DNA of 17,538 nt from the IMG/VR virus record IMGVR_UViG_3300029079_000044, one strand, 5' to 3'. Of the stretch, positions 1 to 16,802 are shown in pieces. The stretch is from a virus. Lineage: Duplodnaviria > Heunggongvirae > Uroviricota > Caudoviricetes. How positions within the stretch are numbered: position 1 is the first letter of the stretch; every line of letters begins with the position of its first letter. The notes beneath the pieces are model-generated. The model saw only the letters and a list, made by a program, of their open reading frames with translations, ran no database searches and was not told where the DNA came from. A program made the position numbers and the translations under genes.

Positions 1-1789
1 CGCCTTCCATTTTCTCCGGATCATCTTCCTGAACTTCAACCTGATACTCTTCATCGAATGTTTCCTGGTATGTTGCGTCGCCCATTACCGCGCCACAATC
101 AGGGCAGTTGCCGCCGCCGGTCTGACCGCAGGCGGTGCAGACTTTTTCCACTTCCTGTTGCGCCACTGATTCAGGCTGTTTCGTTTCTGGCTCGTTTTGT
201 AACGCATTTGGGCTGTTTTGTTCCGCTTTTTGGTAGTTCCGTTCCGATTCATGCTGGTTCTGGTTCACAGAATCGCGGGTCTGGATCCCCTTAACCCATT
301 TCGGATCATTCGGGTCACTAATCCCTTCAACAAATTCACCACGTGATGCAGTAAGCAACTTATCGGCGTCAGGCTGGATGATATTGGCTGCCTGCATAAT
401 GTTGTTTACTTCGTCAGCGGTAACTTTCATCGGCTCTGGTTGTTCTGAATCTTCAGCGGTATCTACATTTTGCGGTAAGCCCGTGTATGTGCCATTTTTT
501 CGGGCAAAATATTCTTCTTTTGTGATTTCAGTGGCGCCAGCAGCCAGTGCCTTATCCAGACCAGAAAGTTTGTTTGCGCGACCGTATTTTTCTCCGTCCT
601 TATCTGCGAAGAGGAAATAGAACGGCCCCTCACGCTCTACAGATGGTTCAGCTTCCGGCGCGGTTTCATTTTTTGGGATATCAGATACCTCAGTTTCCAC
701 TGCATCAGTTTGTGTTTCTGATGACTGGAGAACATCAACAGTGCCCAGGTCTGTTTCTTCATTCTCAAACACGCCCTTTGTCGTCAGGTATTCGCAGATA
801 TATTTGTTCAGTGCTACGGGATCTTTGTGAATGTCGATCGGACGTTCACGGACAAGGCCAAAAATAGTTTGGCGGTCGTAGCGAAGGGCATCAGGCTGTT
901 TGCGCATTGATGCCGAGATACGCTTCCAGTCTTCGCGGTCGTTATCGATAACTTCATTTTTTGCCCAGCGATGGATGCTGCCGTCAATGTTTCCGGCATC
1001 CACATCACCAGGCCAGAGAGCGTAGGCCAGTTCGTCATCCAGTGTTTTCCATGTCTGCTTGTATTCGCGATGAATGGCAGCAATGACCGGGCTGATTTTT
1101 CCTGTTGAATTTTCAGTGTACTGTTGATTGGCTCTGGCGCGGGCGAGATCAACAACAGACGTGTATTTTCCGGTTTCCTTGCGTTCACCTTCGCGACGTT
1201 TTTTCCAGATGCGCATCTCTGCCTGAATTTCGGGCCATTTAGCACCAGGAATACATTTATGCTTAACCCACCCAATGGCGTGCAACTTAAGCTCCGGATA
1301 CATGGCGTTAACTTCTGGCATTTTCATCAACGCTTCAACGATATGTCCGTCGAATGTTGCCATGTCTTCCTGCAACAATTCCTGTGCGCTAATAACCATA
1401 TCAACGGTGATGTTTTCACATGTGTCGAACTTAACCATGACAGCGTTCTGTACTTCAGGGGCCAGCTTGTCAAAAGTGACGTTCATCGGATCGGATTCAG
1501 TCTCAACCGGGACAAAAGAAGCAGACTCCTCATCCCAGCGGTTTTCCTGCATATATTCAGCATCCCATGAATCGAGGGCAGGGCGGGGTATGCCAGGTTT
1601 ATCCTCGCAGACAATAAATTTATAAGCGCAGTCCTGAGCAGCCGGATAATGTTCCAGGAATTGCCAGTGAAATTTTGCTCGAGCACGGCGTTCGTCGCCA
1701 GCTTCAATGGCTGTAGCTACAGCCACAGCGCTATCTTCTTTTATGGCCTGTTCGTCAGGAATAGCAGCGCAAATAAAGATTTTACTCAT
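1..1789 (-). CDS. recE: RecE-like exodeoxyribonuclease VIII, N-terminal ~596 codons; the gene continues past the left edge of the window
   Basis: Uninterrupted minus-strand frame from ATG at 1789 ([14 protein letters not shown]...) to position 1; GAGG about 10 nt upstream of the ATG. Contains a [16 protein letters not shown] Cys cluster and an [26 protein letters not shown] segment that I recall from RecE. Absent from the ORF track only because no stop lies inside the window. Confidence 0.6.
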
Positions 1790-1869
1790 TGTGTTTTAAC
1801 CTCATTACAGATTTCAGGGTGAACGAATCCCTGCCATTGCTGGCATATAAAAATGAAACTGGATATTAA

Positions 1870-2073
1870 TTACGGCGCTGTTTTTAATCCTGCCGGGATT
1901 TCGTTATTATCCTGGTGAATAACTTTATCGACCGGGTAACAGTTACCGGGAATTTTCTGTTCGGTTGCTGCAGTCACACACTCCTGCATTGTCCTGTGAA
2001 CACTGACTGCAATATCAACTGGCTCTCCGGAAACAAGAAAAACTGTCAGAACAAGTGCAAATGCTGTATTCAT
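1870..2073 (-). CDS. ydfD: YdfD-like small protein with hydrophobic N-terminus (67 aa from internal Met of the 85-aa track ORF)
   Basis: ATG at 2073 overlaps the dicB TGA stop (ATGA coupling); N-terminal hydrophobic stretch AFALVLTVFLVSG; position directly after dicB as in the Qin dicB operon. Confidence 0.5.
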   Translation of the reverse strand: MNTAFALVLTVFLVSGEPVDIAVSVHRTMQECVTAATEQKIPGNCYPVDKVIHQDNNEIPAGLKTAP

Positions 2074-2258
2074 TGCCAGCATCCTTTTTGTATCGGACGT
2101 AAACGGGCCAGCATTGAAAGAATGCATATTTTATTTAATAGCTCCCGTTCGTGTTTTCTCTTGTTAATGGCATCTTCAGTAAATACAGGGTTACTGATAG
2201 TGACACCAATTTCAAAACAACCTTCAGACGTATTAACGTTTGGTAATAACGTTTCCAT
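2070..2258 (-). CDS. dicB: Cell division inhibitor DicB (62 aa)
   Basis: Internal Met of the 2070..2363 track ORF gives METLLPNVNTSEGCFEIGVTISNPVFTEDAINKRK...; GAGGA 7 nt upstream of the ATG; lies immediately downstream of the DicF sRNA as in Qin. Confidence 0.7.
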   Translation of the reverse strand: METLLPNVNTSEGCFEIGVTISNPVFTEDAINKRKHERELLNKICILSMLARLRPIQKGCWQ

Positions 2259-2432
2259 TATCGCGTCCTCAACAATGAATTTTGTGATGCGGTGCCTGGT
2301 GCTTCCAGGTGACGTTAACCAGTTAACAATTAACGCCGGATACAGAGAATCCACCCATAACACTGTTTTTGGTTTTAACTGTTCCGCGTGCGCTCAGCCG
2401 CATTCACCGCATCACAAAATTCACTTTAAAAA

Positions 2433-2485
2433 GGGCGGCAGAGCAGTCACGGAGTAAAACTGATACCGCCAAACGTCACCAGAAA
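2433..2485 (-). ncRNA. dicF: DicF small RNA (ftsZ-targeting), 53 nt
   Basis: Reverse complement reads TTTCTGGTGACGTTTGGCGGTATCAGTTTTACTCCGTGACTGCTCTGCCGCCC followed by TTTTT, matching the DicF sequence as I recall it, including the GGCGG...CCGCC enclosing stem and 3' U-run. Confidence 0.8.
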
Positions 2486-2825
2486 ATTGATAACAGAGGG
2501 CGTTGCAGCGGGGTTGTCACTTAAGCGTATGGTCAACCTGACAACCCGGTGTCCTCAACGGGGAAGGAATAACCCCGCCATACTCACCGCCGCGCCATTT
2601 CGCGGATTGCCACAACCGGAAGCGCACGGTCGACGAAAATTTAACGACAGGCTATCTATGAACCAGCTACCTCGCCGTGCGCTTTCGCGTTATGGTCTGA
2701 CCTTTCAGGGAAATATCCTTTCAGTAAACTGTCTGTGCCGGATGCTCACCCGTGTCCGGCGCACGCACTCCACCTCATCCGTGGAGAACTCCTTAATTAC
2801 CAACCTTAGCTTCGTTGGTTAGCTA

Positions 2826-3044
2826 TTAACGCGGGTATGTAATCATTCTGGCAATGCTTAATGCCGCTGCTTTTTCCAGATTAGTGATATCCTGCTCCAG
2901 AGCGGACAGATTTTCAGCCTGCTTAGCCCTGGCTTCATTGGCCCATTTCAGATCCTGCGCTGCATTAATTTTCTGGTGCATCCACTCATAAAGTTCATCA
3001 TCGGTATAGTCTGGCGCGATGATGACGGGTTCTCGTTTCTGCAT
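2826..3044 (-). CDS. ydfC: YdfC-like small protein (72 aa)
   Basis: Track ORF; GAGGA upstream of ATG at 3044; size and position match ydfC of the Qin dicB operon. Confidence 0.55.
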   Translation of the reverse strand: MQKREPVIIAPDYTDDELYEWMHQKINAAQDLKWANEARAKQAENLSALEQDITNLEKAAALSIARMITYPR

Positions 3045-3073
3045 ACTGATTCCTCGCGGTGCTGTTTCGCTTA

Positions 3074-3202
3074 TCAGCCGTTAGATTTTGCCGAACTGGA
3101 AAGCGCCTGTTTAAATTCGTTGAAGCTGAGAGCTTCTTCGCCTTCGGCAAGACCTTCGAAGTATTCTTCGTAAGCCTTTTCCATGATTGTGTCGAAATCC
3201 AT
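3074..3202 (-). CDS. ydfB: YdfB-like small acidic protein (42 aa, MDFDTIMEKAYEEYFEGLAEGEEALSFNEFKQALSSSAKSNG)
   Basis: Hand-translated minus-strand ORF below the track length cutoff; AGGTGAG Shine-Dalgarno 7 nt upstream; abuts the ydfA-like stop; size matches ydfB. Confidence 0.45.
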   Translation of the reverse strand: MDFDTIMEKAYEEYFEGLAEGEEALSFNEFKQALSSSAKSNG

Positions 3203-3203
3203 A

Positions 3204-3359
3204 TCACTCACCTGAGTTTCTTTCCAGCCAGCGACGGGCACCATTTTCGGTTTTAAACGTTTTGCTTTTGTTATACGTCATCGCGGTGAACGTACCGTCC
3301 TGGTTGGGGAACACGCCACATACCAGAGATTCGCTGTTGCCAAGATCGATAGTATCCAT
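3204..3359 (-). CDS. ydfA: YdfA-like small protein (51 aa from internal Met of the 78-aa track ORF)
   Basis: Internal ATG at 3359 preceded by GAGG at 5-nt spacing; MDTIDLGNSESLVCGVFPNQDGTFTAMTYNKSKTFKTENGARRWLERNSGE; first gene of the leftward operon. Confidence 0.5.
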   Translation of the reverse strand: MDTIDLGNSESLVCGVFPNQDGTFTAMTYNKSKTFKTENGARRWLERNSGE

Positions 3360-3529
3360 GCTGACCTCATTTCCCCTTAACGCCGGGGTAGCGGAACAAA
3401 AACCTGCTGCATAGTTATTAAAGTTGAACCCTGCCGTCATGTTCTTACGCCTCGGGCTGGCTACTTAACCCCTGACCACTGCCTGGTAACTCGAAGTATT
3501 GCCCTGCATTCTGTGGGGCGGGGTGGTGG

Positions 3530-3585
3530 CAGGTATATAATGTACTTTGCGTTCATTGTTGTAAAGTACTTTTAGTACATTTTGT
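3530..3585. promoter_or_regulatory. OL/PL-like operator-promoter region of the leftward early operon
   Basis: Clustered AGTACT/TGTACT motifs (aatgtactttg; aaagtacttttagtacatt) plus a TATAAT-like block (gtatataatg) between the repressor stop and ydfA. Confidence 0.4.
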
Positions 3586-3655
3586 GTGTAAAAAAATGAG
3601 ATGGGATAAAGTGAAGCACAAACCCGGAGGAAGGCGCTACCGGATTTATGCTGGT

Positions 3656-4075
3656 TTAAGAGGCTTTTTGTTTTTTCTTTCGTGCTAACTCTTCGTAAAT
3701 TGCATTGTACTTCTGTTTTTTCTCTTCAAGAGTTTTTAAAAGTTCATCTGTCTCACTGTCAGGGAGCTCGTCCAGAAGGTCAATGATGATTTTTTGTCTT
3801 GGATTTAACTCCTGATAGAAACGTACCTGTCCACTTTCTTCTGTATCCTCTCCCAAAAGATAGGTTGGTGTTGTTCCTATTAGTGTTGCTAATTCCCTTA
3901 ATTTCTCCCGGCGAGGAATTGTTTCGCCATTAAACCATTTGCTAACCGCTTTTGGTGTTAATTTCATTCGACGGGCAATTTCTGCCTGCCTTCCATGTTG
4001 TTCATAACCAGCGTTTTCACAGGCTAGCGCAAGCCTACTGGCGAACTCTTTACGCGCTTTATCTTCATGAACCAT
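3656..4075 (-). CDS. XRE-family HTH immunity repressor (cI analogue, DicA/RacR-like), 139 aa
   Basis: Track ORF; N-terminal HTH-like segment (EIARRMKLTPKAVSKWFNGE) and acidic/helical C-terminus; divergent from the cro-like gene, with operator repeats on both sides. Confidence 0.75.
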   Translation of the reverse strand: MVHEDKARKEFASRLALACENAGYEQHGRQAEIARRMKLTPKAVSKWFNGETIPRREKLRELATLIGTTPTYLLGEDTEESGQVRFYQELNPRQKIIIDLLDELPDSETDELLKTLEEKKQKYNAIYEELARKKKQKAS

Positions 4076-4094
4076 AAGTTCAATGATATTCGCT

Positions 4095-4150
4095 CTTGAA
4101 TGTACTGTCAGTTCTGTTATAGCATGTACTCAAAGTTCACATTGTGAGGG
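4095..4150. promoter_or_regulatory. OR-like divergent operator-promoter region between the repressor and the cro-like gene
   Basis: TTGAAT -35-like hexamer, two ATGTACT motifs (4100 and 4126) matching the OL repeats, and a TCACAttgTGA palindrome. Confidence 0.4.
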
Positions 4151-4154
4151 TGAT

Positions 4155-4409
4155 ATGAACCAGAAAACACTTGAAGATGTAATCAAAACTGTTCGCGTTG
4201 CTGTTGTGGCCGACGTTTGTGGTGTCAGCCAAAGAGCAATCTATAAATGGATGGATAACGGAAAATTGCCTCGCACAGAATATACCGGCGAAACAAATTA
4301 CGCTGAAAAAATCGCTCTTGCATCAAACGGATTATTTTCTGCCGATGCAATTTTAACTATTGGCAGGAATAAAACTACTACGAAAAAGCTGATGGGAGTT
4401 GATTCATGA
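4155..4409 (+). CDS. Cro-like HTH regulator, YdaS/DicC family (84 aa)
   Basis: Internal ATG at 4155 preceded by GAGGG; HTH-like segment VCGVSQRAIYKWMDNGKLP; stop overlaps the next start (ATGA). Confidence 0.6.
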   Translation: MNQKTLEDVIKTVRVAVVADVCGVSQRAIYKWMDNGKLPRTEYTGETNYAEKIALASNGLFSADAILTIGRNKTTTKKLMGVDS

Positions 4410-4831
4410 AAATCAAGCATGAACACATCCGCATGGCGATGAATGCCTGGGCGCGTCCTGATGGCGAAAAAGTTCCAGCAGCTGGAATAACCCAGGCTTA
4501 TTTTGAGTTGGGTATGACGTTCCCAGAACTGTATGACGACAGCCATCCGGAAGCCCTGGCTCGCAATACCCAGAAAATTTTCCGCTGGGTAGAGAAAGAC
4601 ACCCCTGATGCTGTTGAAAAAATGCAGGCTCTGTTACCGGCGATCGAAAAGGCGATGCCGCCTTTGCTGGTGGCCCGTATGCGCAGCCACAGTTCTGAAT
4701 ATTATCGTGAGATCGTCGAACGGAGGGATCGGCTGGTGAAGGATGTCGATGATTTTGTTGCGTCAGCGGTTGTTTTGTATGACCAGATGAATCGCGGCGG
4801 CCCGGCAGGGAATGCTGTGGTGATGCACTAA
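4406..4831 (+). CDS. ydaT: YdaT-like protein (cII-analogue / putative toxin family), 141 aa
   Basis: Track ORF starting MKIKHEHI..., the N-terminus I associate with the YdaT family; translationally coupled to the upstream cro-like gene. Confidence 0.65.
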   Translation: MKIKHEHIRMAMNAWARPDGEKVPAAGITQAYFELGMTFPELYDDSHPEALARNTQKIFRWVEKDTPDAVEKMQALLPAIEKAMPPLLVARMRSHSSEYYREIVERRDRLVKDVDDFVASAVVLYDQMNRGGPAGNAVVMH

Positions 4832-6435: not shown

Positions 6436-7122
6436 ATGACCCCAATAAAAATATTTATGACTATTGCTGATTTCAAACGGCCTAAATTGGAGCTCCCAAA
6501 CGGGGCAAACAAACTACTACTGCACTCTTGCTGTGCTCCATGTTCCGGTGAAGTGATGGAGGCGCTTCAGGCCTCGGGAATCGACTACACCATCTTTTTC
6601 TACAACCCGAACATTCATCCTCAGAAAGAGTATTTAATTCGTAAGGATGAAAATATTCGCTTTGCTGAACAACACGGCGTGCCGTTTATCGATGCTGATT
6701 ACGACACCGACAACTGGTTTGAACGTGCCAAAGGAATGGAATGGGAGCCTGAGAGGGGGATCCGTTGTACCATGTGTTTTGACATGCGTTTTGAGCGGAC
6801 AGCGTTGTACGCTGCTGAAAATGGTTTCAGTGTGATCAGCAGTTCACTGGGCATTTCACGCTGGAAAAATATGCAGCAGGTTAACGAGTGTGGGCGGCGA
6901 GCTGTTGCGCATTATCCGGGTATGGTGTACTGGGATTATAACTGGCGCAAGCAGGGCGGCTCGTCCCGTATGATTGAAATCAGCAAGCGCGAAAAATTCT
7001 ATCAGCAGGAATATTGTGGCTGTGTGTATTCTCTGCGCGATACCAATCTACACCGCAAATCTCAGGGACGCCCTCTTATCAAAATTGGTCAACTCCACTA
7101 CGATAAAGAAGAGAAGGAGTGA
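6436..7122 (+). CDS. queH: QueH-like protein (DUF208; putative epoxyqueuosine reductase), 228 aa
   Basis: [11 protein letters not shown] motif near the N-terminus plus downstream RCTMCF and CGC Cys motifs, as I recall for DUF208/QueH. Start is uncertain because no clear Shine-Dalgarno precedes 6436 or 6457. Confidence 0.65.
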
Positions 7123-7330: not shown

Positions 7331-7945
7331 ATGAGAGTAAATAAACTACATTTAGGTGCTAGAGTTTCGCTATTTATAGTGTCATACCTTCCCCTATTCT
7401 TTATCATGTGTTTTGTGCAATTGTATACTTATAGAAGCTATTTAAATTGGAAAGGTATAAGTGTTGAATCATTAACTATTTTCTTTAAATACTTTGGCGC
7501 GGTCAGTGTCATTGGTGTATTATCATTATTTGGTATTGTAGGATTAACAATTTTTTTAAAAAATATAAAACGTCGATGCGCCACTAGTGGTAGAACTGTA
7601 AGAGTTATAGATATTGAAAATAAAAACAATGAATCAATAAGCTATCTTTTTACATATATAATTCCGTTTGTATTTCAGGATCTATCCACTTTAACTAATG
7701 TTATACCTATAGCAATATTGTTAACGGTAACGGCTTTAATATATATTAATTCAAGCATGATACTTATAAATCCTACAATAAGTATTAATTATACTTTATA
7801 TCAAGTTACATATTTGGATTTAGAAAGCGACAAAAAACGCACTGGTATGGTTTTGACTAAATCAAAGTATTTGGAGGAAGATGATCTTCTTGATGTTGAG
7901 GACGTGGGCCCAAAACTTTTTTATGCTGAATCCCATAAGGAATGA
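7331..7945 (+). CDS. Integral membrane protein with about 4 predicted TM helices and an acidic C-terminal tail (204 aa); first gene of the AT-rich cassette, KwaA-like architecture
   Basis: Track ORF; hydrophobic segments LFIVSYLPLFFIMCFVQLY, AVSVIGVLSLFGIVGLTIFL, YLFTYIIPFVF, VIPIAILLTVTALIYI; GGGG upstream of the ATG; stop overlaps the next start. Confidence 0.7.
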   Translation: MRVNKLHLGARVSLFIVSYLPLFFIMCFVQLYTYRSYLNWKGISVESLTIFFKYFGAVSVIGVLSLFGIVGLTIFLKNIKRRCATSGRTVRVIDIENKNNESISYLFTYIIPFVFQDLSTLTNVIPIAILLTVTALIYINSSMILINPTISINYTLYQVTYLDLESDKKRTGMVLTKSKYLEEDDLLDVEDVGPKLFYAESHKE

Positions 7946-8970
7946 AAATGTTAAAGCTTGAAGAATTATTAGAGTATGCTGAGCAACTTAAGGATGATGA
8001 TGCGGCGAAAATATCGTTGTATTTCATTACTAGACATCTTAAAGCGGGTATGAGTAGAACCGCAAGAGTTGTTGATAAATTCGATTTTAAAATCATTAAA
8101 GCTCCAATCGCTCCAGATATTGCTAAATTTTTTAAGTATACTTTATCAAACCAGATTATTTCTCATGCTTCGAAAGATGATATTGTGATGAAAAAGTATA
8201 CTGTTATTGATGATGATATTGATAATAAGATTTATGCCTATGCTATGAATAACGCGATATCGTTTTCAAAAGTTATTAATAACGATATAAAGAATGATAA
8301 ACCAGTTGTACTTACCTCTCTTGCTGAGGTTCAGAATGATTTGTGGGCCTATTGTATTAAAGTCCAAAAGGGGGCTGACGTCACTTATTCTTTCCGAAAA
8401 ATCAGCAGGGGGAAAGTCACAACAAATGAACCACAAAATATGACTCAGCGCGTATTCGCTTTGTTTGATAAAACAGATAAAGAGTTAAGATCATTTGATG
8501 GCAGCGCAGTCAATTTTGATGACAAAATCGATTGTGTTTATATAAAAGATCAATTTTATGTATTTCATAAGAAAAGTTTTGAGGCTATTGTAGGCTTGGA
8601 GGTTGAGTTTACAGAAGCTGCACAAAAAACATTAAATACAATTAAAGAACTTGATCTTATTGAAGGTTTAGATGTTATTGAACAAGCTATTCTTCATAAG
8701 CCATCACTGAGAAAAATTCTCACTCATATCGCTGAGAAAGGTAACCATACGGTTCTGGAAAAGAATGATGTTCAAGCTATGAATGATGTGCTAAAAATGT
8801 TTCAGAACGAAGAGTTTAAGACCAATGAGCATGGTAAATTAGTCATAGAAGATGAGAGGCAAGGAAGAAACTTTCTCAAACTGTTAAATGATTATTATAA
8901 ACAAGGCATGACTACAAAAAAATACTATGGTACGGATAGCGGAAATGTGATTAACCCTATTAAGGCGTAA
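7942..8970 (+). CDS. Soluble 342-aa protein of unknown function, translationally coupled to the upstream membrane protein; candidate defence effector/sensor (KwaB-like size)
   Basis: Track ORF; ATGA start/stop overlap at 7942-7945; AT-rich codon usage unlike the flanking genes; no catalytic motif recognisable by eye. Confidence 0.7.
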   Translation: MKMLKLEELLEYAEQLKDDDAAKISLYFITRHLKAGMSRTARVVDKFDFKIIKAPIAPDIAKFFKYTLSNQIISHASKDDIVMKKYTVIDDDIDNKIYAYAMNNAISFSKVINNDIKNDKPVVLTSLAEVQNDLWAYCIKVQKGADVTYSFRKISRGKVTTNEPQNMTQRVFALFDKTDKELRSFDGSAVNFDDKIDCVYIKDQFYVFHKKSFEAIVGLEVEFTEAAQKTLNTIKELDLIEGLDVIEQAILHKPSLRKILTHIAEKGNHTVLEKNDVQAMNDVLKMFQNEEFKTNEHGKLVIEDERQGRNFLKLLNDYYKQGMTTKKYYGTDSGNVINPIKA

Positions 8971-9198: not shown

Positions 9199-9237
9199 GA
9201 ATCACGGCGGGTGCTTGAGGCTATCTGCCTCGGGCAC
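9199..9237 (+). promoter_or_regulatory. Conserved -10-like hexamer (TAGAAT) plus hairpin motif copy B
   Basis: GCGGGTGCTTGAGGCTATCTGCCTCGGGCA at 9207-9236 is 26/30 identical to copy A at 7188-7217; forms an 11-bp stem GTGCTTGAGGC/GCCTCGGGCAC with loop tatct; sits at the right boundary of the AT-rich cassette. Confidence 0.4.
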
Positions 9238-9399
9238 GAACACCAAAGGCAGATAGAGAAAAGCCCCAGTTAACATTACGCGTCCTGCAAGACGCTTAAC
9301 ATTAATCTGAGGCCAATTTCATGCTAGACACATGTAGGTTAGCCTCTTACGTGCCGAAAGGCACGGAGAAGCAGGCTATTGTTAACACCAAGCTGTAAT

Positions 9400-10900
9400 G
9401 TCCCCTTTGAACCATTCTAAAATGTCCCCAGACAATTCTCTGGGGGATTTTTCATGATCAAAGAGACTGTTACGATGAGTCATAAGGAACTCCACCGACT
9501 TCAGATTATTCAGGAACAAGCTGCGGCACGCATTGGCATTTCTATTCGGCAGGTTAAACGTCTGGTGCAACGGTATAGAAATGAAGGGCCTTCTGGTCTG
9601 GTTTCCCACCGACGTGGAAAGCGTCCTAATAATTCCTTTTCTACTGAATTCAGAGCAACAGTAATTTCACTCCTCAAAGGCCGTTACGCTGATTTTGGAC
9701 CTACGTTTGCGTGCGAAAAATTGCGCGAGATACACGGTTTATCTTTATCCGTTGAAACTCTCAGAAAGTGGATGATAGAAGAGGGGTTATGGCGTGAACG
9801 CCGTCGTAAAATTGCCCGTATATATCAACGCCGCATGCGACGACCATCTTACGGTGAACTGATCCAGATTGATGGCTCACCTCATGACTGGTTTGAAAAT
9901 CGAGGCCCCAGATGTACACTGATCGTTTTCATTGATGATGCCACCAGTGCGTTGATGGCGTTGCGTTTTGTGCCTGCTGAAACAACCCGGGCTTACATGG
10001 AAACCCTCCGGGGTTACCTTAATGATCATGGCGTACCGCTCGCTCTCTACTCTGATAGACACAGTATATTCAGGGTAAATAACCCAGAGCGGGAAGGTGA
10101 GCTGACCCAGTTCACTCGTGCGATAAAGACACTGGGCATCGAGCCAATCCATGCCAACAGCCCGCAGGCAAAAGGGCGGGTAGAGCGCGCCAATCAGACA
10201 CTACAGGACAGGCTGGTCAAAGAAATGCGGCTTCAGAATATCAGTGATATTGAAACAGCAAATGCATGGTTGCCGACCTTTATTGAAGCCTATAACAACC
10301 GGTTCGCTACGTCGCCTCGTACTACTGATAATGCTCATCTTGATGTGCACCATTCTGAAGAGGAACTGGGTTATATCTTCAGCCTACAGGCGAAGCGCGT
10401 TCTGTCTAAAAATCTCACTTTCCAGTACAAAAGCAGTGCGTTTCAGGTACGCAGTGAGGGCCGGGGATATCGACTTAGGCATTCGGTTGTTACTGTATGC
10501 GAGAACTTTGACGGTGAAATTAACGTTCTGTATGACGGGAAAGCGCTGGGCTGGGAAAAGTATGTTGATGGCCCGGAGCCTATACCACTGGATGATGAAA
10601 AGAGTGTCCATGAACGAGTGGATAATGCCCGTATTGATTTACGCTCAAAATACTATGTTAAACCTAAAGCTGACCATCCCTGGCTTACGCGCCGAACGCA
10701 AAGTCATCAGCAAGTTAAGCCCCCGAAGTTACCTAAAAAGAAGCCTGATCCCGATAAAAAAGATTGAAACCAAGATCGATTCGGTTGAGTGCATATCCAT
10801 TCATAGGGTAGATTCTTAAGTCGCGTTTCTGGTGTTCATTTTCGGGTGGTTTGTTACTTGTTTTACCGGGGATATGCCAGAAACGCGCTGAGTCAGTCTG
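9400..10900 (+). mobile_element. Insertion sequence carrying one DDE transposase gene (IS481/ISNCY-like); ends approximate
   Basis: Single 437-aa transposase ORF; terminal inverted repeats could not be resolved by eye, so these bounds are a guess of ORF plus about 50-130 bp each side. Confidence 0.35.
9454..10767 (+). CDS. DDE transposase with N-terminal HTH and rve integrase core (IS481/ISNCY-family-like), 437 aa
   Basis: Track ORF; N-terminal HTH (ARIGISIRQVKRLVQRYRNEG); catalytic-triad candidates in IQIDGS, YSDRHS and KGRVERANQTLQ; lysine/proline-rich basic C-terminus. Confidence 0.8.
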   Translation: MIKETVTMSHKELHRLQIIQEQAAARIGISIRQVKRLVQRYRNEGPSGLVSHRRGKRPNNSFSTEFRATVISLLKGRYADFGPTFACEKLREIHGLSLSVETLRKWMIEEGLWRERRRKIARIYQRRMRRPSYGELIQIDGSPHDWFENRGPRCTLIVFIDDATSALMALRFVPAETTRAYMETLRGYLNDHGVPLALYSDRHSIFRVNNPEREGELTQFTRAIKTLGIEPIHANSPQAKGRVERANQTLQDRLVKEMRLQNISDIETANAWLPTFIEAYNNRFATSPRTTDNAHLDVHHSEEELGYIFSLQAKRVLSKNLTFQYKSSAFQVRSEGRGYRLRHSVVTVCENFDGEINVLYDGKALGWEKYVDGPEPIPLDDEKSVHERVDNARIDLRSKYYVKPKADHPWLTRRTQSHQQVKPPKLPKKKPDPDKKD

Positions 10901-11203
10901 GGCGGTGCGCGTAATGAGGCGTTATGGTAAATAGCCTATGCTAATGTCCGCTAAGAGCAAGAAGCGGAAGTTGGCAGTTTTGTGGACTGTCCCCACAAAA
11001 GTGACTACAGAAATAGTTGCAATTCATAATTGATCATGGGTTGTCAGTTAAACTCGTGGCGATTTAAATAGACTAATTGGGAGTGCGTCCATTACTTATA
11101 TCTTGTAATGTTAACTATCAGAAATGATACAAAGATAATATGTCTTTAAAGAAAAGGCTGATGGCGAAAAGTGGCCCGATGAGGGCCACAATACGGCTGT
11201 CAC

Positions 11204-11536
11204 TTAGACGTAAATATCAATGGTGCCAGCGGTATTTGTATCGTCTTTTTTCTCTTCTTTTTTATCAGGCTGAACTGTCGCGTCTTCATTCTTTTTCTCT
11301 GCCTGCTGCCTTAACAACTGCTCCAGTTGAGCCCAGAGGCTTTCAATTTGCTTCTGTACCAATGCAGCCATTTCTTTTTTCTGCTGTGTCGTCATCCCCT
11401 CTTCCGATGAGATTTTCCCAAGCTTTTCAGTCAGCACCTGAATTTGTCTTGTGATTTTGGCTATTTCTGATGTTCCTTCCGGGGCGGAGTTGTTTGAAAT
11501 AACGGTTGAGGTATTTCCCTGAATTGTGACAGACAT
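11204..11536 (-). CDS. flxA: FlxA-like protein (110 aa)
   Basis: Track ORF MSVTIQGNTS...; AGGAG Shine-Dalgarno; preceded by a near-consensus sigma-28 promoter; position next to relB as in Qin. Confidence 0.7.
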   Translation of the reverse strand: MSVTIQGNTSTVISNNSAPEGTSEIAKITRQIQVLTEKLGKISSEEGMTTQQKKEMAALVQKQIESLWAQLEQLLRQQAEKKNEDATVQPDKKEEKKDDTNTAGTIDIYV

Positions 11537-11559
11537 AGATTTCTCCTTTTAAAAAAGCA

Positions 11560-11586
11560 CTATCGGCATGCACAAAAAAATCTTTA
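11560..11586 (-). promoter_or_regulatory. Sigma-28 (FliA) class-3 promoter for flxA
   Basis: Minus strand reads TAAAGATT, 11 nt, GCCGATAG against the consensus TAAAGTTT-N11-GCCGATAA; the -10 element lies about 24 nt upstream of the flxA ATG. Confidence 0.6.
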
Positions 11587-11738
11587 ATCGTATTTCTTGT
11601 GTCATTAATTGTTTGATGTTCAGATTGTTTTCCTCGCGGGCTGGCGCGCCTCAGAAAGTAAAGCTTGTTGACAGGGGTAAACGTTCGGCAATAATTTTCT
11701 GCCGCATGCGGGTGTTGCATAAAACGTGTTACGTTCCT

Positions 11739-12044
11739 TTATCGACAGTTCAGGTCACCGCTCACCCGCCGACGAGAAAGCAACACTGACATGCTAAAGC
11801 AAAAAATAGATGAATAAGTTGAGTTGTGCATATGTAGCCTGACCGTCACAAAGTATATGGTGTCTGTACCAGTAAGATGATGGCCGGACTCTTTAAAAAC
11901 GAGCTGACCTGCACAATACAGGATGGACTTAGCAATGGCTGCTCCTGGCACAAAGCGGACAGTGATCACCGTTCTTACGACTACTTTCTGACTTCCTTCG
12001 TGACTTGCCCTAAGCATGTTGTAGTGCGATACTTGTAATGACAT
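11739..12044 (-). CDS. YdfV-like hypothetical ORF (101 aa), doubtful
   Basis: Track ORF with size and position like ydfV between flxA and relB; no convincing Shine-Dalgarno; start lies inside the relBE promoter/operator. Confidence 0.3.
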   Translation of the reverse strand: MSLQVSHYNMLRASHEGSQKVVVRTVITVRFVPGAAIAKSILYCAGQLVFKESGHHLTGTDTIYFVTVRLHMHNSTYSSIFCFSMSVLLSRRRVSGDLNCR

Positions 12045-12060
12045 TTGTAATTACAAGAGG
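12004..12060 (+). promoter_or_regulatory. relBE promoter and relO operator
   Basis: TTGCCC, 17 nt, GATACT, then repeated TTGTAAT/ATTACAA hexads (cttgtaatgacatttgtaattacaag) directly upstream of relB. Confidence 0.6.
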
Positions 12061-12068
12061 TGTAAGAC

Positions 12069-12308
12069 ATGGGTAGCATTAACCTGCGTATTGACGATGA
12101 ACTTAAAGCGCGTTCTTACGCCGCGCTTGAAAAAATGGGTGTAACTCCTTCTGAAGCGCTTCGTCTCATGCTCGAGTATATCGCTGACAATGAACGCTTG
12201 CCGTTCAAACAGACACTCCTGAGTGATGAAGATGCTGAACTTGTGGAGATAGTGAAAGAACGGCTTCGTAATCCTAAGCCAGTACGTGTGACGCTGGATG
12301 AACTCTGA
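12069..12308 (+). CDS. relB: RelB antitoxin (79 aa)
   Basis: MGSINLRIDDELKARSYA...PKPVRVTLDEL matches RelB as I recall it; AGAGG Shine-Dalgarno; TGATG overlap with relE. Confidence 0.9.
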   Translation: MGSINLRIDDELKARSYAALEKMGVTPSEALRLMLEYIADNERLPFKQTLLSDEDAELVEIVKERLRNPKPVRVTLDEL

Positions 12309-12595
12309 TGGCGTATTTTCTGGATTTTGACGAGCGGGCACTAAAGGAATGGCGAAAGCTGGGCTCGACGGTACGTGAACAGTTGAAAAAGAAGCTGGTT
12401 GAAGTACTTGAGTCACCCCGGATTGAAGCAAACAAGCTCCGTGGTATGCCTGATTGTTACAAGATTAAGCTCCGGTCTTCAGGCTATCGCCTTGTATACC
12501 AGGTTATAGACGAGAAAGTTGTCGTTTTCGTGATTTCTGTTGGGAAAAGAGAACGCTCGGAAGTATATAGCGAGGCGGTCAAACGCATTCTCTGA
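12308..12595 (+). CDS. relE: RelE mRNA interferase toxin (95 aa)
   Basis: MAYFLDFDERALKEWRKLGSTVR...VYSEAVKRIL matches RelE as I recall it. Confidence 0.9.
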   Translation: MAYFLDFDERALKEWRKLGSTVREQLKKKLVEVLESPRIEANKLRGMPDCYKIKLRSSGYRLVYQVIDEKVVVFVISVGKRERSEVYSEAVKRIL

Positions 12596-12666
12596 ACCAA
12601 AGCATGACATCTCTGTTTCGCACCGAAGGTGACACTTCTGCTTTGCGTTGACAGGAGAAGCAGGCT

Positions 12667-12822
12667 ATGAAGCAGCAAAAGGCGATGTTAATCGCCCTGA
12701 TCGTCATCTGTTTAACCGTCATAGTGACGGCACTGGTAACGAGGAAAGACCTCTGCGAGGTACGAATCCGAACCGGCCAGACGGAGGTCGCTGTCTTCAC
12801 AGCTTACGAACCTGAGGAGTAA
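12667..12822 (+). CDS. hokD: Hok-family membrane toxin HokD/RelF (51 aa)
   Basis: Hand-translated MKQQKAMLIALIVICLTVIVTALVTRKDLCEVRIRTGQTEVAVFTAYEPEE; below the track length cutoff; follows relE as in the relBEF operon. Confidence 0.8.
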   Translation: MKQQKAMLIALIVICLTVIVTALVTRKDLCEVRIRTGQTEVAVFTAYEPEE

Positions 12823-12890
12823 GAGACCCGGCGGGGGAGAAATCCCTCGCCACCTCTGATGTGGCAGGCATCCTCAACGCACCCGCACTT

Positions 12891-12917
12891 AACCCGCTTC
12901 GGCGGGTTTTTGTTTTT
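12891..12917 (+). terminator. Rho-independent terminator after hokD
   Basis: aaCCCGCttcgGCGGGtttttgttttt: GC stem, 4-nt loop, U-run. Confidence 0.6.
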
Positions 12918-12930
12918 ATTTTCAACGCGT

Positions 12931-12960
12931 TTGAAGTTCTGGACGGTGCCGGAATAGAAT
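12931..12960 (+). promoter_or_regulatory. Sigma-70-like promoter upstream of rem
   Basis: TTGAAG, 18 nt, TAGAAT. Confidence 0.4.
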
Positions 12961-13038
12961 CAAAAATACTTAAGTAGCGCGCAGGGATAAGAGGGATGGT
13001 CCCTTAAAGGGGAGAGCTAATTATCCGGAAGGATTCTG

Positions 13039-13290
13039 ATGATGAACATCGAAGAACTGCGTAAAATTTTTTGTGAAGATGGCCTCTATGCTGTGTGCGT
13101 TGAAAATGGAAATCTTGTTAGTCATTACCGCATTATGTGTTTGCGAAAGAATGGGGCTGCGTTAATTAATTTTGTGGATGCTCGGGTCACGGACGGATTT
13201 ATCTTGCGCGAAGGTGAGTTTGTCACTTCATTACAGGCATTGAAAGAGATCGGAATAAAAGCTGGCTTTTCTGCTTTTTCAGGAGAATAA
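13039..13290 (+). CDS. rem: Rem-like small protein (83 aa)
   Basis: Track ORF; size and position (between hokD and ydfU) as in Qin. Confidence 0.5.
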   Translation: MMNIEELRKIFCEDGLYAVCVENGNLVSHYRIMCLRKNGAALINFVDARVTDGFILREGEFVTSLQALKEIGIKAGFSAFSGE

Positions 13291-13356
13291 ACTCATCTAC
13301 AATCTTGCGCGGGGCTGAACTCCCGCTGAGTAACACCGTGCCACCGGAGAAAACCG

Positions 13357-13635
13357 ATGGCACGCAACGCAAAATATTACAATTCTGATAATTCGCCCGT
13401 TCTTGCCTGCACGCACGGGCGGTATTCTCACGCATTCAAGTCTGAATGGTTCCAGCACCCTCCATGCACTGCAGAACAGGCCGAATGGCTGATTCATTCT
13501 TACCGCAGGCGCGGGTTCGAGGTTAAGAAAGCTCTCAGTCTCGACTATCGGCACTGGATAATCTCTGTCAGGCTGCCTTATTCCGAACGCCCACCACGTG
13601 CGTCCCGCACTTTCCAGCAACGGATCTGGAGGTAA
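13357..13635 (+). CDS. Hypothetical Cys/His-containing protein (92 aa)
   Basis: Track ORF; GGAG 7 nt upstream of the ATG; its TAA stop lies 1 nt before the GTG start of the next gene. Confidence 0.45.
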   Translation: MARNAKYYNSDNSPVLACTHGRYSHAFKSEWFQHPPCTAEQAEWLIHSYRRRGFEVKKALSLDYRHWIISVRLPYSERPPRASRTFQQRIWR

Positions 13636-13636
13636 C

Positions 13637-14686
13637 GTGCGGGTATTACTTAGACCTGTTCTGGTGCCTGAGCTTGGGCTGGTGGTCCTTAAGCCGGGCC
13701 GTGAATCCATACAGATATTTCATAATCCTCGAGTGCTGGTGGAACCGGAACCAAAAAGCATGCGTAATCTGCCATCCGGAGTCGTTCCTGCCGTTCGCCA
13801 GCCGCTGGCGGAAGACAAAACATTGCTGCCGTTTTTTAGTAACGAACGGGTGATTCGTGCTGCTGGCGGCGTTGGCGCATTGTCCGACTGGCTATTACGT
13901 CATGTTACATCCTGCCAGTGGCCTAATGGCGATTACCATCACACTGAAACAGTCATTCACCGTTATGGTACCGGCGCAATGGTGTTGTGCTGGCACTGCG
14001 ACAACCAACTGCGTGACCAGACATCGGAATCACTGGAGCTGCTTGCTCAACAAAATCTGACAGCATGGGTGATTGACGTCATCCGTCACGCAATAAGCGG
14101 TACGCAGGAGCGGGAATTATCTTTGGCTGAATTATCCTGGTGGGCGGTCTGCAATCAGGTGGTGGATGCACTACCTGAGGCTGTATCGCGTCGTTCGCTG
14201 GGATTACCAGCGGAAAAAATCTGCTCGGTGTACCGCGAAAGCGACATCGTACCGGGAGAGCAGACCGCCACCAGCATATTGAAACAACGCACAAAAAATC
14301 TTGCACCGTTGCCTTACGCCCACCAGCAACAAAAATCACCACAGGAAAAGACGGTGGTAAGCATCACCGTTGATCCAGAGTCTCCGGAATCTTTCATGAA
14401 GCTGCCTAAACGTCGCCGCTGGGTTAAGGAGAAATACACACGTTGGGTTAAGACACAGCCGTGTGCTTGCTGCGGTATGCCAGCCGACGATCCGCATCAT
14501 CTGATTGGTCACGGGCAGGGCGGAATGGGAACAAAAGCACATGATCTCTTTGTGTTGCCTTTGTGCAGAAAGCATCACAACGAGCTGCATACGGATACAG
14601 TGGCATTTGAAGATAAGTATGGCTCCCAACTGGAGCTGATATTTCGTTTTATCGATCGCGCGCTGGCAATTGGCGTACTGGCGTAA
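13637..14686 (+). CDS. ydfU: YdfU-like DUF968 protein (349 aa from GTG)
   Basis: Track ORF 13598..14686 trimmed to the GTG at 13637, which is preceded by GGAGG; length then matches ydfU as I recall it; C-terminal Cys/His cluster (CACCGMPADDPHHLIGHG...CRKHHNELH). Confidence 0.6.
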   Translation: MRVLLRPVLVPELGLVVLKPGRESIQIFHNPRVLVEPEPKSMRNLPSGVVPAVRQPLAEDKTLLPFFSNERVIRAAGGVGALSDWLLRHVTSCQWPNGDYHHTETVIHRYGTGAMVLCWHCDNQLRDQTSESLELLAQQNLTAWVIDVIRHAISGTQERELSLAELSWWAVCNQVVDALPEAVSRRSLGLPAEKICSVYRESDIVPGEQTATSILKQRTKNLAPLPYAHQQQKSPQEKTVVSITVDPESPESFMKLPKRRRWVKEKYTRWVKTQPCACCGMPADDPHHLIGHGQGGMGTKAHDLFVLPLCRKHHNELHTDTVAFEDKYGSQLELIFRFIDRALAIGVLA

Positions 14687-14699
14687 GTGGAGAACGAGC

Positions 14700-15452
14700 A
14701 TGAACCTTGAAGCCTTACCAAAATATTACTCCCCAAAATCTCCAAAATTGAGCGATGACGCTCCAGCGACAGGCACCGGTTGTTTAACAATTACGGATGT
14801 AATGGCAGCGCAGGGGATGGTGCAGTCGAAAGCACCACTTGGGTTGGCCTTATTTCTGGCAAAAGTTGGTGTTCAGGACCCTCAGTTTGCGATTGAAGGC
14901 CTGCTAAATTACGCGATGGCACTGGATAACCCGACATTGAACAAATTGAGTGAAGAAATCCGGTTACAGATTATTCCTTACCTCGTGAGTTTTGCCTTTG
15001 CTGATTACTCCAGGTCTGCGGCAAGTAAGGCTCGCTGTGAGCATTGTTCAGGTACGGGATTTTATAATGTATTGCGCGAAGTGGTGAAACACTACAGACG
15101 CGGGGAATCTGTAATCAAGGAAGAATGGGTGAAGGAACTATGTCAGCATTGCCATGGTAAGGGCGAAGCCAGCACAGCGTGCAGAGGGTGTAAGGGTAAA
15201 GGGATTGTTCTGGATGAAAAAAGAACCCGGTTTCATGGCGTACCGGTATATAAGATTTGTGGGCGTTGTAATGGAAACCGGTTTAGTCGTTTACCGACCA
15301 CGCTGGCACGACGTCATGTCCAGAAGCTGGTACCAGACCTGACCGATTATCAGTGGTATAAGGGGTATGCGGACGTCATTGGTAAACTGGTAACAAAGTG
15401 CTGGCAGGAAGAAGCATACGCGGAAGCGCAATTGAGGAAGGTGACGAGATAA
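14700..15452 (+). CDS. quuQ: Late-gene antiterminator Q (QuuQ-like, 250 aa) with CxxC zinc-finger motifs
   Basis: ATG at 14700 preceded by GGAG at 7-nt spacing; CEHCSGTG, CQHCHGKG, CRGCKGKG and CGRCNG motifs; followed by a late promoter and terminator. Confidence 0.75.
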   Translation: MNLEALPKYYSPKSPKLSDDAPATGTGCLTITDVMAAQGMVQSKAPLGLALFLAKVGVQDPQFAIEGLLNYAMALDNPTLNKLSEEIRLQIIPYLVSFAFADYSRSAASKARCEHCSGTGFYNVLREVVKHYRRGESVIKEEWVKELCQHCHGKGEASTACRGCKGKGIVLDEKRTRFHGVPVYKICGRCNGNRFSRLPTTLARRHVQKLVPDLTDYQWYKGYADVIGKLVTKCWQEEAYAEAQLRKVTR

Positions 15453-16086: not shown

Positions 16087-16386
16087 AAAAATTCCTTAAT
16101 ACTGATAACTTGGCGCACTATACACACGTTCCTGAAGAAAGCTATAGTTTTTTGATGGGGTTGAAGATGGCTGGATGTCTAAAATAAACATTGCTTCATA
16201 TGTTCAACTATGCGTTAATGATTGCGTCGGTTTGAAGAACAGACGATATACGAAGTAGTTTACTAAAGCAGTTCTCATTTCAGGTGTTATTCACTTATTC
16301 CTTCTTTGAGTCTCTCCAATTAAGTACGAAGTCGTTTCTGTTATGCAAACCATTTATGCCGAAAGGCTCAAGTTAAGGAATGTAGA

Positions 16387-16602
16387 ATGTCAAATAAAAT
16401 GACTGGTTTAGTAAAATGGTTTAACGCTGATAAAGGTTTCGGCTTTATTTCTCCTGTTGATGGTAGTAAAGATGTGTTTGTGCATTTTTCTGCGATTCAG
16501 AATGATAATTATCGAACCTTATTTGAAGGTCAAAAGGTTACCTTCTCTGTAGAGAGTGGTGCTAAAGGTCCTGCGGCAGCAAATGTTATAATTACCGATT
16601 AA
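16387..16602 (+). CDS. cspB: Cold-shock protein CspB-like (71 aa)
   Basis: [51 protein letters not shown]...; AAGGA Shine-Dalgarno. Confidence 0.8.
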
Positions 16603-16802
16603 AATCCAGGACTCGACTGTATACGATAACGAAGATGGCTGATGCCTGAGTAGAGATGCAGATAGAGTAATGGATATAGAATCCCATTTTGTGGTGAAGT
16701 ACAGGTTTGCTGTATGAATAGTTTAATAGCAGAAGCTAACTGCTGGCATAGTAAAACAAAGTGCGTAAGTGGGTGACTCCCACAAAAAGCACCACAATCT
16801 CA

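What the first reader, a model, noticed from the sequence alone, without database searches (positions are those of the whole stretch)
1..3440. Chimeric leftward early operon: Qin-type ydfABC-dicF-dicB-ydfD fused to a Rac-type recE
The gene order ydfA, ydfB, ydfC, DicF sRNA, DicB, ydfD matches the Qin dicB operon as I recall it, yet it continues into a long RecE-like exonuclease gene as in Rac, and the rightward side carries ydaS/ydaT-like genes (Rac-type) rather than dicC alone. This looks like an intact relative of the degraded K-12 Qin and Rac prophages. DicF and DicB are both intact cell-division inhibitors, so derepression would be expected to cause filamentation.
Basis: partly seen in the sequence, partly recalled or inferred. 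Interest (0 to 1): 0.35.

Follow-up and report, generated by a model that had tools for sequence, protein, structure and literature searches.

The report
Ordinary Qin-type dicBF prophage operon
This is the well-known dicB/DicF cell-division-inhibitor operon of Qin-type E. coli prophages, here with its last gene (the exonuclease gene ydfE, broken by an insertion element in K-12) still whole as far as the window shows; more than half of complete E. coli genomes have this layout, and it is not a Qin-Rac fusion.

Summary
On the minus strand the window carries ydfA, ydfB, ydfC, DicF (53/53 identical to K-12), dicB, ydfD and then an open exonuclease gene that runs off the left edge.

The "chimera with Rac recE" reading does not hold. 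Window 1023-3397 aligns with K-12 Qin at 97% right up to the IS2E that truncates the K-12 pseudogene ydfE. Exonuclease nt 101-767 is 667/667 identical to ydfE. The long gene is therefore the intact native last gene of the Qin operon.

It resembles Rac RecE only in a central segment (36.7% aa). It lacks RecE's N-terminal domain and fails the RecE equivalog threshold.

The catalytic domain lies just beyond the window. In 13 of 13 contigs that share the window's diagnostic sequences exactly, and in 3,609 of 5,426 complete E. coli genomes, the gene continues into a DnaQ-like 3'-5' exonuclease domain followed by xis and int; in the three relatives whose flank was read the prophage adjoins rspB (the Qin site), with no recT.

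Real YdfE::RecE hybrids with recT at the Rac site exist but are rare (8 of 5,426), so this is not excluded for the window (about 4%).

On the right side, a YdaT-family gene is present but a YdaS-family gene is not; K-12 Qin's ydfX is itself YdaT-like.

Filamentation on derepression is a sound inference. Already known; low interest.

The parts
2..1789 (-). First 596 codons of the ydfE-type exonuclease gene (Pfam YdfE_N + YdfE_C in relatives). It runs off the left edge, and the nuclease domain is not in the window.
   Evidence: No stop codons. 97.3% aa identity to the K-12 YdfE pseudogene over aa 1-257, and nt 101-767 are 667/667 identical. PHROG 2082 positions 1-596 of 823, 1,382 bits. Nt 101-1789 identical to the 823-aa gene of E. 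coli EC77. Contains CxxC-x8-CxxC ([16 protein letters not shown]) near the window edge.
1870..2073 (-). ydfD (DUF1482 lysis protein), 67 aa. Its start overlaps the dicB stop (ATGA).
   Evidence: 93.7% identity to K-12 YdfD over 63 aa, plus 4 extra C-terminal residues. PF07358. PHROG 1092.
2070..2258 (-). dicB, 62-aa cell-division inhibitor.
   Evidence: Pfam DicB 1-62/62, 127 bits. NCBIfam CellDivInhibDicB 132.7 bits against a cutoff of 100. 88.7% identity to K-12. The exact sequence is seen on at least 1,000 contigs.
2433..2485 (-). DicF small RNA, ending in a GC stem and a T-run.
   Evidence: Rfam RF00039 76.7 bits (gathering score 48), model 1-52/52. 53/53 identical to K-12 dicF. T-run read.
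2486..2825 (-). Untranslated spacer between ydfC and DicF. It includes the 5' part of the 190-nt RNase III precursor described in K-12.
   Evidence: 96.8% identical to K-12; the 137 nt next to DicF are 98.5% identical. The processing itself is from the literature (PMC10448788).
2826..3044 (-). ydfC, 72 aa, function unknown.
   Evidence: 98.6% identity to K-12 YdfC. PHROG 1744.
3074..3202 (-). ydfB, 42 aa, function unknown.
   Evidence: 97.6% identity to K-12 YdfB.
3204..3359 (-). ydfA (DUF1391), 51 aa. The ORF can also start at 3440 (78 aa).
   Evidence: 94.1% identity to K-12 YdfA and 83.7% to Rac YdaF. PF07151.
3537..3580 (-). Candidate leftward (PL/dicBp-like) promoter TTTACA-17-CATTAT, overlapped by two operator-like repeats 24 nt apart.
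   Evidence: Promoter scan. Repeat family ATGTACTnnnnGTTC at 3540, 4100 and 4124, plus a palindrome at 3564-3580. 6 of the 8 AGTACWT sites in the window lie in these two intergenic regions. Function is inferred.
3656..4075 (-). cI/DicA-position repressor (HTH_3), of a different immunity type from K-12 DicA.
   Evidence: 28.6% identity to DicA. NCBIfam DicA 56.8 bits against a cutoff of 101. Annotated 'CI repressor' in phage Tritos.
4100..4138 (.). Two operator-like repeats, 24 nt apart, between the repressor gene and the cro-like gene.
4083..4409 (+). cro-position HTH gene (PGAP starts it at about 4158).
   Evidence: No YdaS or P22_Cro Pfam match; only a weak HTH_17 match. PHROG 35 'transcriptional repressor'.
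4406..4831 (+). YdaT-family, CII-position gene.
   Evidence: PF06254 37.8 bits against a cutoff of 21. 30.6% identity to Rac YdaT and 37.9% to Qin YdfX. PHROG 163 'CII-like'.

Best explanation
Window 1-3440 is the early-left (dicBF) operon of a Qin-type lambdoid prophage in its undamaged form.

How it most likely works:
- A cI-position repressor (3656-4075) binds paired operators at the leftward promoter (about 3537-3580) and between cI and cro (4100-4138), keeping the operon silent in the lysogen.
- On derepression, one transcript runs ydfA-ydfB-ydfC, a spacer, DicF, dicB, ydfD and the exonuclease gene, probably on into xis and int beyond the window.
- DicB recruits MinC to the division ring and also blocks ManYZ-dependent phage DNA entry. 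YdfD is a lysis protein held in check by DicB. The net result is filamentation and exclusion of some phages.
- The long gene is the intact form of K-12's ydfE, not an imported Rac recE. It shares only a central scaffold with RecE, including a CxxC..CxxC patch. Just beyond the window it most probably ends in a DnaQ-like 3'-5' exonuclease domain with no RecT partner.

Shown here: the gene content, the identities and the distribution.
Inferred: the promoter and operators, co-transcription through the DicF terminator, the phenotypes (from K-12 work) and the nuclease head (from relatives).
For: Match to K-12 Qin:
- One 2,376-nt alignment of window 1023-3397 at 97.0%, ending exactly at IS2E.
- Per-feature identities of 94-100%, with DicF 53/53 and exonuclease nt 101-767 at 667/667.
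- The same layout (int-xis-exonuclease-ydfD-dicB-DicF-ydfCBA-repressor) next to rspB in LR-24 and EC77, and the same gene order in the phage Tritos record.

Distribution:
- 2,855 of 5,426 complete E. coli genomes hold at least 80% of window 1-3700.
- 40 phage records match, including the plaque-forming phage Tritos (PMC9928086).

Nuclease head:
- The Tritos and EC77 proteins have PF16473 at aa 642-813 (226 bits) and no DUF3799.
- The junction into the DnaQ-like tail is in 3,609 of 5,426 genomes; the junction into the PD-(D/E)XK tail is in 8.
- All 11 IMG/VR contigs with the window's first 100 nt exactly, and both contigs that share its distinctive 5' patch and extend left of the window, continue into the DnaQ-like tail.
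- Best PHROG is the 823-aa family.

Regulation and phenotype come from the literature: PMC10448788, PMC5069750, PMC6832061. Operator repeats and the promoter-like site.
Against: - The nuclease domain and everything downstream lie outside the window.
- The two known gene types diverge only about 10-40 nt beyond position 1, so the type is inferred from relatives.
- The top protein-database hits at 98% identity are 900-aa PD-(D/E)XK hybrids. However, EC77's 823-aa gene is identical to the window over nt 101-1789.
- The repressor is not DicA, so K-12 regulatory details (Rem, DicC) may not carry over.
- The DicB allele differs from K-12 at 7 of 62 residues and is untested.
- The promoter scan found no more sites than expected by chance (3 found against 4.9 expected).
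Confidence: 0.9

Rival explanations
1. The window's gene is one of the rare genuine hybrids: the YdfE 5' two-thirds joined to the 3' third of Rac recE (PD-(D/E)XK 5'-3' exonuclease), followed by recT, rcbA, xisR and intR at the ttcA (Rac) site. That would make the reader's 'chimera' essentially right.
For: - Such hybrids exist. L006 and L007 carry dicB-ydfD, a 900-aa YdfE_N/YdfE_C/DUF3799 protein, RecT, the Rac integrase and ttcA. Their DNA from the junction onward, together with a lower-identity stretch just before it, aligns with K-12 Rac at 97.5-98.4%.
- The 900-aa proteins are 96-98% identical to the window's 596 aa.
- Crossovers fall in a conserved patch that straddles the window edge.
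- L007 also shares the window's flxA-relBE-hokD-rem-ydfU block.
Against: - Only 8 of 5,426 complete genomes have this junction, and at 92-94% identity.
- The window shows the Qin-type bases at the sites where L007 has already switched to Rac-type. It also carries two bases near its end that, among the six relatives aligned, only the 823-aa EC77 gene shares.
- In 13 of 13 exact-match contigs the gene continues into the DnaQ-like tail.
Confidence: 0.04
2. The operon is an inert relic of a cryptic prophage: the ORFs are intact by chance or recent descent, but it is never expressed or has no role.
For: - In K-12 no natural inducing signal was found for years, and the operon is tightly repressed (PMC5069750, PMC6832061).
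- The window contains an ISNCY transposase gene and a split hok/sok locus, which are signs of decay elsewhere in the element.
Against: - All six ORFs and DicF are intact, whereas K-12's copy is damaged.
- The same operon is carried by plaque-forming phage Tritos (PMC9928086).
- DicF accumulates in stationary phase, and Rem induces the operon in K-12 (PMC10448788).
- The exact protein alleles recur on about 700 to more than 1,000 contigs.
Confidence: 0.06

Closest known systems
dicBF operon of the K-12 cryptic prophage Qin (ydfABC-dicF-dicB-ydfDE)
   Same: Same genes in the same order and on the same strand, 94-100% nt identity feature by feature. DicF is identical, and ydfE nt 101-767 is identical.
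   Different: - ydfE is not interrupted by IS2E here.
- The promoter/operator region and the repressor belong to another immunity type (28.6% identity to DicA).
- The stretch from dicB through the first 100 nt of the exonuclease gene is a divergent patch (90-95%).
- YdfD is 4 aa longer.

Qin-site prophages of other E. coli strains and phage Tritos (LF82 prophage 3), mEp460/Ev081-like phages
   Same: Full layout int-xis-823-aa exonuclease-ydfD-dicB-DicF-ydfCBA-cI-cro-YdaT-like. 96.6-97.7% nt identity over window 1-4820 for Tritos and LR-24.
   Different: The replication and moron region to the right differs (QueH, Kiwa, ISNCY and the relBE block here). No complete genome in the collection covers more than 85% of the window.
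Rac prophage early-left operon (ydaG-ydaF-sieB...kilS-kilR-ydaE-racC-recE-recT)
   Same: - Parallel architecture: a DUF1391 gene, then a small RNA, then a small division inhibitor, then a long exonuclease gene.
- Short homologous patches: ydfA/ydaF 87%, the leader 87%, the DicF-dicB spacer against the kilS-kilR spacer 80%, and the central exonuclease region 77%.
   Different: - The division inhibitor (KilR against DicB) and the small RNA are unrelated in sequence.
- RecE has an Exonuc_VIII N-terminal domain, a PD-(D/E)XK head and a RecT partner. None of these is seen here or in the closest relatives.
DnaQ-like 3'-5' nucleases in lambdoid recombination modules (Genome Res 2025, PMC12315714)
   Same: The closest relatives of the window's gene end in a DnaQ/Rv2179c-like domain and sit at the position of the recombination-module nuclease.
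   Different: The domain is fused to a long YdfE_N/YdfE_C scaffold, and no annealing protein lies next to it. Its role is unknown. The domain itself is outside the window.

Membership tests
Qin-type dicBF operon | Co-linear ydfA-ydfB-ydfC-dicF-dicB-ydfD(-ydfE) on one strand | tested here: met
   all seven features are present in order on the minus strand, within a single 97% alignment to K-12 Qin.
Qin-type dicBF operon | DicF RNA reaching the Rfam gathering score | tested here: met
   76.7 bits against 48, full model. 53/53 identical to K-12.
Qin-type dicBF operon | DicB protein family membership | tested here: met
   PF05358 127 bits. NCBIfam NF049927 132.7 bits against a cutoff of 100.
Qin-type dicBF operon | Repression of the operon promoter by DicA | tested here: not met
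   The repressor at the DicA position is 28.6% identical to DicA and scores 56.8 bits against the DicA subfamily cutoff of 101. A repressor of a different immunity type takes its place, and operator-like repeats are present.
Qin-type dicBF operon | Filamentation on derepression | not testable with these tools
   Inferred from K-12 experiments (PMC10448788, PMC5069750).
RecE / exonuclease VIII (Rac type) | N-terminal Exonuc_VIII domain (PF06630) | tested here: not met
   Rac RecE scores 327 bits; the window protein and the Tritos protein give no match.
RecE / exonuclease VIII (Rac type) | Whole-protein NCBIfam equivalog NF007259 (cutoff 1,269 bits) | tested here: not met
   237.7 bits for the window part and 290.8 bits for the full-length Tritos relative; only model positions 271-602 are matched.
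RecE / exonuclease VIII (Rac type) | C-terminal PD-(D/E)XK nuclease domain (DUF3799, PF12684) | not testable with these tools
   The domain would lie beyond window position 1. All 13 contigs that share the window's diagnostic sequences exactly, and 3,609 of 5,426 complete genomes, have a DnaQ-like domain instead. Eight genomes have DUF3799.
RecE / exonuclease VIII (Rac type) | Adjacent recT partner gene | not testable with these tools
   Outside the window. Absent in Tritos, LR-24 and EC77, where the exonuclease gene is followed by xis and int. Present only in the rare hybrids L006 and L007.
Rac-type racR-ydaS-ydaT immunity module | YdaS family protein (PF15943) at the cro position | tested here: not met
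   Rac YdaS scores 107.7 bits; window 4083-4409 gives no match. BLASTP finds no hit to YdaS or DicC.
Rac-type racR-ydaS-ydaT immunity module | YdaT family protein (PF06254) | tested here: met
   37.8 bits against a cutoff of 21, and 30.6% identity to Rac YdaT. This is not Rac-specific: K-12 Qin YdfX is 37.9% identical and weakly YdaT-like (19 bits).

The most novel reading that the evidence does not exclude
The exonuclease gene may end, just beyond the window, in the Rac recE PD-(D/E)XK head followed by recT. That would be a true Qin/Rac recombinant of the kind found in L006 and L007.

More generally, YdfE-type and RecE-type genes may share a central scaffold whose conserved CxxC..CxxC-coding patch acts as a crossover point. 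Such crossovers would swap a 3'-5' DnaQ-like head (with the Qin integrase) for a 5'-3' RecE head (with recT and the Rac integrase). Because Rac and Qin lie in opposite orientation on either side of the replication terminus, crossovers of this kind could also invert the terminus region.
Probability: 0.04. Interest if true: 0.3.

Novelty: already known. Interest (0 to 1): 0.12.

Why it matters
It matters little as a discovery. The dicBF operon, its continuation into ydfE, its spread among E. coli prophages and its division-inhibition and phage-exclusion roles are all published. The undamaged layout is present in more than half of complete E. coli genomes.

Two points are of modest use:
- K-12's ydfE is the stump of a very common 811-826-aa protein. 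That protein has a RecE-like scaffold but a DnaQ-like 3'-5' nuclease head and no RecT partner, and its function is unknown. It is often mislabelled 'exonuclease VIII'.
- The repressor here is not DicA, so K-12 regulatory findings (DicA, DicC, Rem) should not be carried over to such prophages without a test.

Tried and rejected
- Finding the source genome. The best complete E. coli genome covers only 85% of the window. An exact 100-nt search of the GTDB representative genomes found nothing. The left flank therefore had to be inferred from relatives.
- Using the top protein-database hits to type the gene. The 98%-identical hits are 900-aa PD-(D/E)XK hybrids. I rejected it after fine alignment showed that the two gene types are identical up to the window edge, and that EC77's 823-aa gene matches the window perfectly, and after the junction counts.
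- The local Pfam copy lacks YdfE_N and YdfE_C, so the window fragment gave 'no families'. Those names come from precomputed hits.
- My own slips:
  - translated the exonuclease gene in the wrong frame; corrected.
  - Searches used ydfD coordinates 1870-2061, four codons short of the true start at 2073. The 'not in the collection' result for YdfD is therefore void.
- The promoter and terminator scan is not significant on its own: 3 promoter-like sites against 4.9 expected. I rely on the operator repeats instead.
- I did not predict a structure for the 596-aa fragment, because the catalytic domain is outside the window.
Full report
**What is in the sequence**

On the minus strand of window 1-3440 the ORF list, Rfam and protein comparisons give the following, reading right to left:
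- ydfA at 3204-3359 (alternative start at 3440).
- ydfB at 3074-3202.
- ydfC at 2826-3044.
- A 340-nt untranslated spacer.
- DicF at 2433-2485.
- dicB at 2070-2258.
- ydfD at 1870-2073, whose start overlaps the dicB stop in ATGA.
- After a 79-nt gap, an ATG at 1789 that opens a reading frame of 596 codons with no stop, running off the left edge.

DicF reaches 76.7 bits against a gathering score of 48 and is 53/53 identical to K-12 dicF. The small proteins are 94% (YdfA), 97.6% (YdfB), 98.6% (YdfC), 88.7% (DicB) and 93.7% (YdfD) identical to their K-12 counterparts. DicB matches its Pfam and NCBIfam models end to end.

**Is the long gene a Rac-type recE fused to a Qin operon? No.**

BLASTN of the window against the K-12 Qin region gives one alignment, window 1023-3397 against NC_000913 1,648,470-1,650,844, at 97.0%. 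It stops exactly where IS2E begins in K-12.

In K-12, ydfD is followed by the pseudogene ydfE, which IS2E cuts after codon 257. The window's protein is 97.3% identical to YdfE over those 257 codons, and nucleotides 101-767 of the gene are 667/667 identical. Published work already describes the K-12 transcript as ydfABC-dicF-dicB-ydfDE (PMC10448788, PMC11430063). So the long gene is the native last gene of the Qin operon, seen here without the insertion.

**Comparison with Rac RecE**

- DNA similarity is limited to window 1-365 at 77%.
- Protein similarity is limited to aa 262-596 against RecE 278-562, at 36.7%.
- RecE's N-terminal Exonuc_VIII domain is absent.
- The NCBIfam RecE equivalog scores 238 bits against a cutoff of 1,269.
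- The best PHROG is an 823-position exonuclease family (1,382 bits); the RecE-type family scores 197 bits.

**The nuclease domain lies outside the window, and two versions exist**

Close relatives come in two forms that are identical up to about gene nt 1,790-1,820. That is 10-40 nt beyond the window edge.

The common form:
- It is 811-826 aa long.
- It ends in an Rv2179c/DnaQ-like 3'-5' exonuclease domain (PF16473, 226 bits in the Tritos protein).
- It is followed directly by an excisionase gene and an integrase gene. In E. coli LR-24 and EC77 these adjoin rspB, the Qin attachment site; phage Tritos has the same gene order.

The rare form:
- It is 900 aa long.
- It switches to the 3' third of Rac recE (PD-(D/E)XK, DUF3799).
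- It is followed by recT, rcbA, xisR, intR and ttcA. DNA from the switch onward, together with a lower-identity stretch just before it, aligns with K-12 Rac at 97.5-98.4%.

Junction-spanning queries find the DnaQ-type junction in 3,609 of 5,426 complete E. coli genomes. They find the RecE-type junction in 8.

Evidence for which form the window has:
- The window is identical to the EC77 823-aa gene over nt 101-1789. This includes two bases near the end that, among the six relatives aligned, only EC77 shares.
- It shows Qin-type bases where hybrid L007 has already switched to Rac-type.
- All 11 IMG/VR contigs that contain the window's first 100 nt exactly continue into the DnaQ-like tail. So do both contigs that share its distinctive 5' patch and extend left of the window.

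I put the chance that the window's gene is the DnaQ type at about 95%.

**The right-hand side**

The repressor at the DicA position (3656-4075) is only 28.6% identical to DicA and falls below the DicA family cutoff. The alignment to K-12 breaks at 3397, so this prophage has a different immunity region.

The cro-position ORF does not match the YdaS or P22_Cro families. The next ORF (4406-4831) is a YdaT-family, CII-like protein, 30.6% identical to Rac YdaT. That does not make it Rac-type: K-12 Qin's ydfX, next to dicC, is 37.9% identical to it and is itself a weak YdaT-family match.

**How the operon is probably controlled**

A 15-nt motif, ATGTACTnnnnGTTC, occurs at 3540, 4100 and 4124, and a related palindrome lies at 3564-3580. 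In both intergenic regions the two sites are 24 nt apart. Six of the eight AGTACWT sites in the whole window lie there.

The left pair overlaps a promoter-like TTTACA-17-CATTAT on the minus strand (3565-3537). The right pair overlaps another such site between the repressor and cro genes. This is the usual OL/OR layout of lambdoid phages. It is inferred here, not shown.

From K-12 work:
- DicB with MinC blocks division and also blocks ManYZ-dependent phage entry (PMC6832061).
- Within the intact operon, DicB causes most of the filamentation (PMC5069750).

DicF and its 137-nt upstream precursor region are 100% and 98.5% conserved, and dicB is intact. It remains untested for this DicB allele, which differs from K-12 at 7 residues but is itself seen on at least 1,000 contigs.

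**How common and how new**

At least 80% of window 1-3700 is present in 2,855 of 5,426 complete E. coli genomes. Forty phage records match, among them phage Tritos, which forms plaques (PMC9928086).

Already in the literature:
- The spread of dicBF among E. coli prophages (PMC5069750).
- The size diversity of Qin-site prophages (PMC6379469).
- DnaQ-like nucleases in lambdoid recombination modules (PMC12315714).

Pfam already has YdfE_N and YdfE_C families. Nothing here is new in kind.

**Verdict**

The 'Qin operon fused to Rac recE' interpretation is not supported. The 'intact relative of K-12 Qin' interpretation is supported. This is an ordinary, already known element, and interest is low.

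Noticed in passing
window 2274-2438: The stretch from the 3' end of DicF through the dicB leader is 80% identical to the K-12 Rac spacer between the 3' end of the kilS small RNA and kilR. Both prophages thus place a small RNA, then a homologous leader, then a small division inhibitor, although DicF and kilS, and DicB and KilR, are themselves unrelated in sequence.
   Followed up: partly
window 13039-13290 (rem) and 3656-4075 (repressor): The antirepressor gene rem lies in a 4.4-kb block that is 99.95% identical to K-12 Qin (window 10583-14941). The repressor here is only 28.6% identical to DicA, which is Rem's known target (PMC10448788). Whether Rem can still derepress this operon is open.
   Followed up: no
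window 7331-8970: A complete Kiwa anti-phage pair sits in the prophage: KwaA at 7331-7945 (337 bits) and KwaB at 7942-8970 (527 bits). An epoxyqueuosine reductase gene, queH, lies at 6436-7122, named from the EC77 annotation.
   Followed up: partly
window 9209-9380 and 12667-12822: The Rfam sok match (105.6 bits) is about 3.3 kb from hokD. In LR-24 and Tritos the two pieces are adjacent. Here the hok/sok locus therefore appears to be split by an insertion carrying an ISNCY transposase gene, ydfW, flxA, ydfV and relBE.
   Followed up: partly
L006 1632-5136; L007 8357-11849 (relatives, not the window): Rare hybrid genes join the 5' two-thirds of ydfE to the 3' third of Rac recE, followed by recT and the Rac integrase at ttcA. 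They occur in 8 of 5,426 complete genomes. The two hybrids have different crossover points. Both lie in a conserved patch that codes a CxxC-x8-CxxC motif and straddles the window's left edge.
   Followed up: yes
window 1690-2260: A divergent patch, 90-95% identical to K-12, runs from dicB through ydfD to the first 100 nt of the exonuclease gene. The DNA around it is 97-100% identical. In this patch YdfD has 4 extra C-terminal residues because TAA is replaced by AAA, and DicB differs from K-12 at 7 of 62 residues.
   Followed up: partly
window 3372-3526: The leader upstream of ydfA matches the Rac leader upstream of ydaG at 87%, but has no match in K-12 Qin. This small Rac-like patch borders the immunity region.
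   Followed up: no
window 16226-16644: There is a full-length match to the cspA thermoregulator RNA family (162 bits), spanning the cspB homologue (16387-16602) and its leader, as in K-12 Qin.
   Followed up: no
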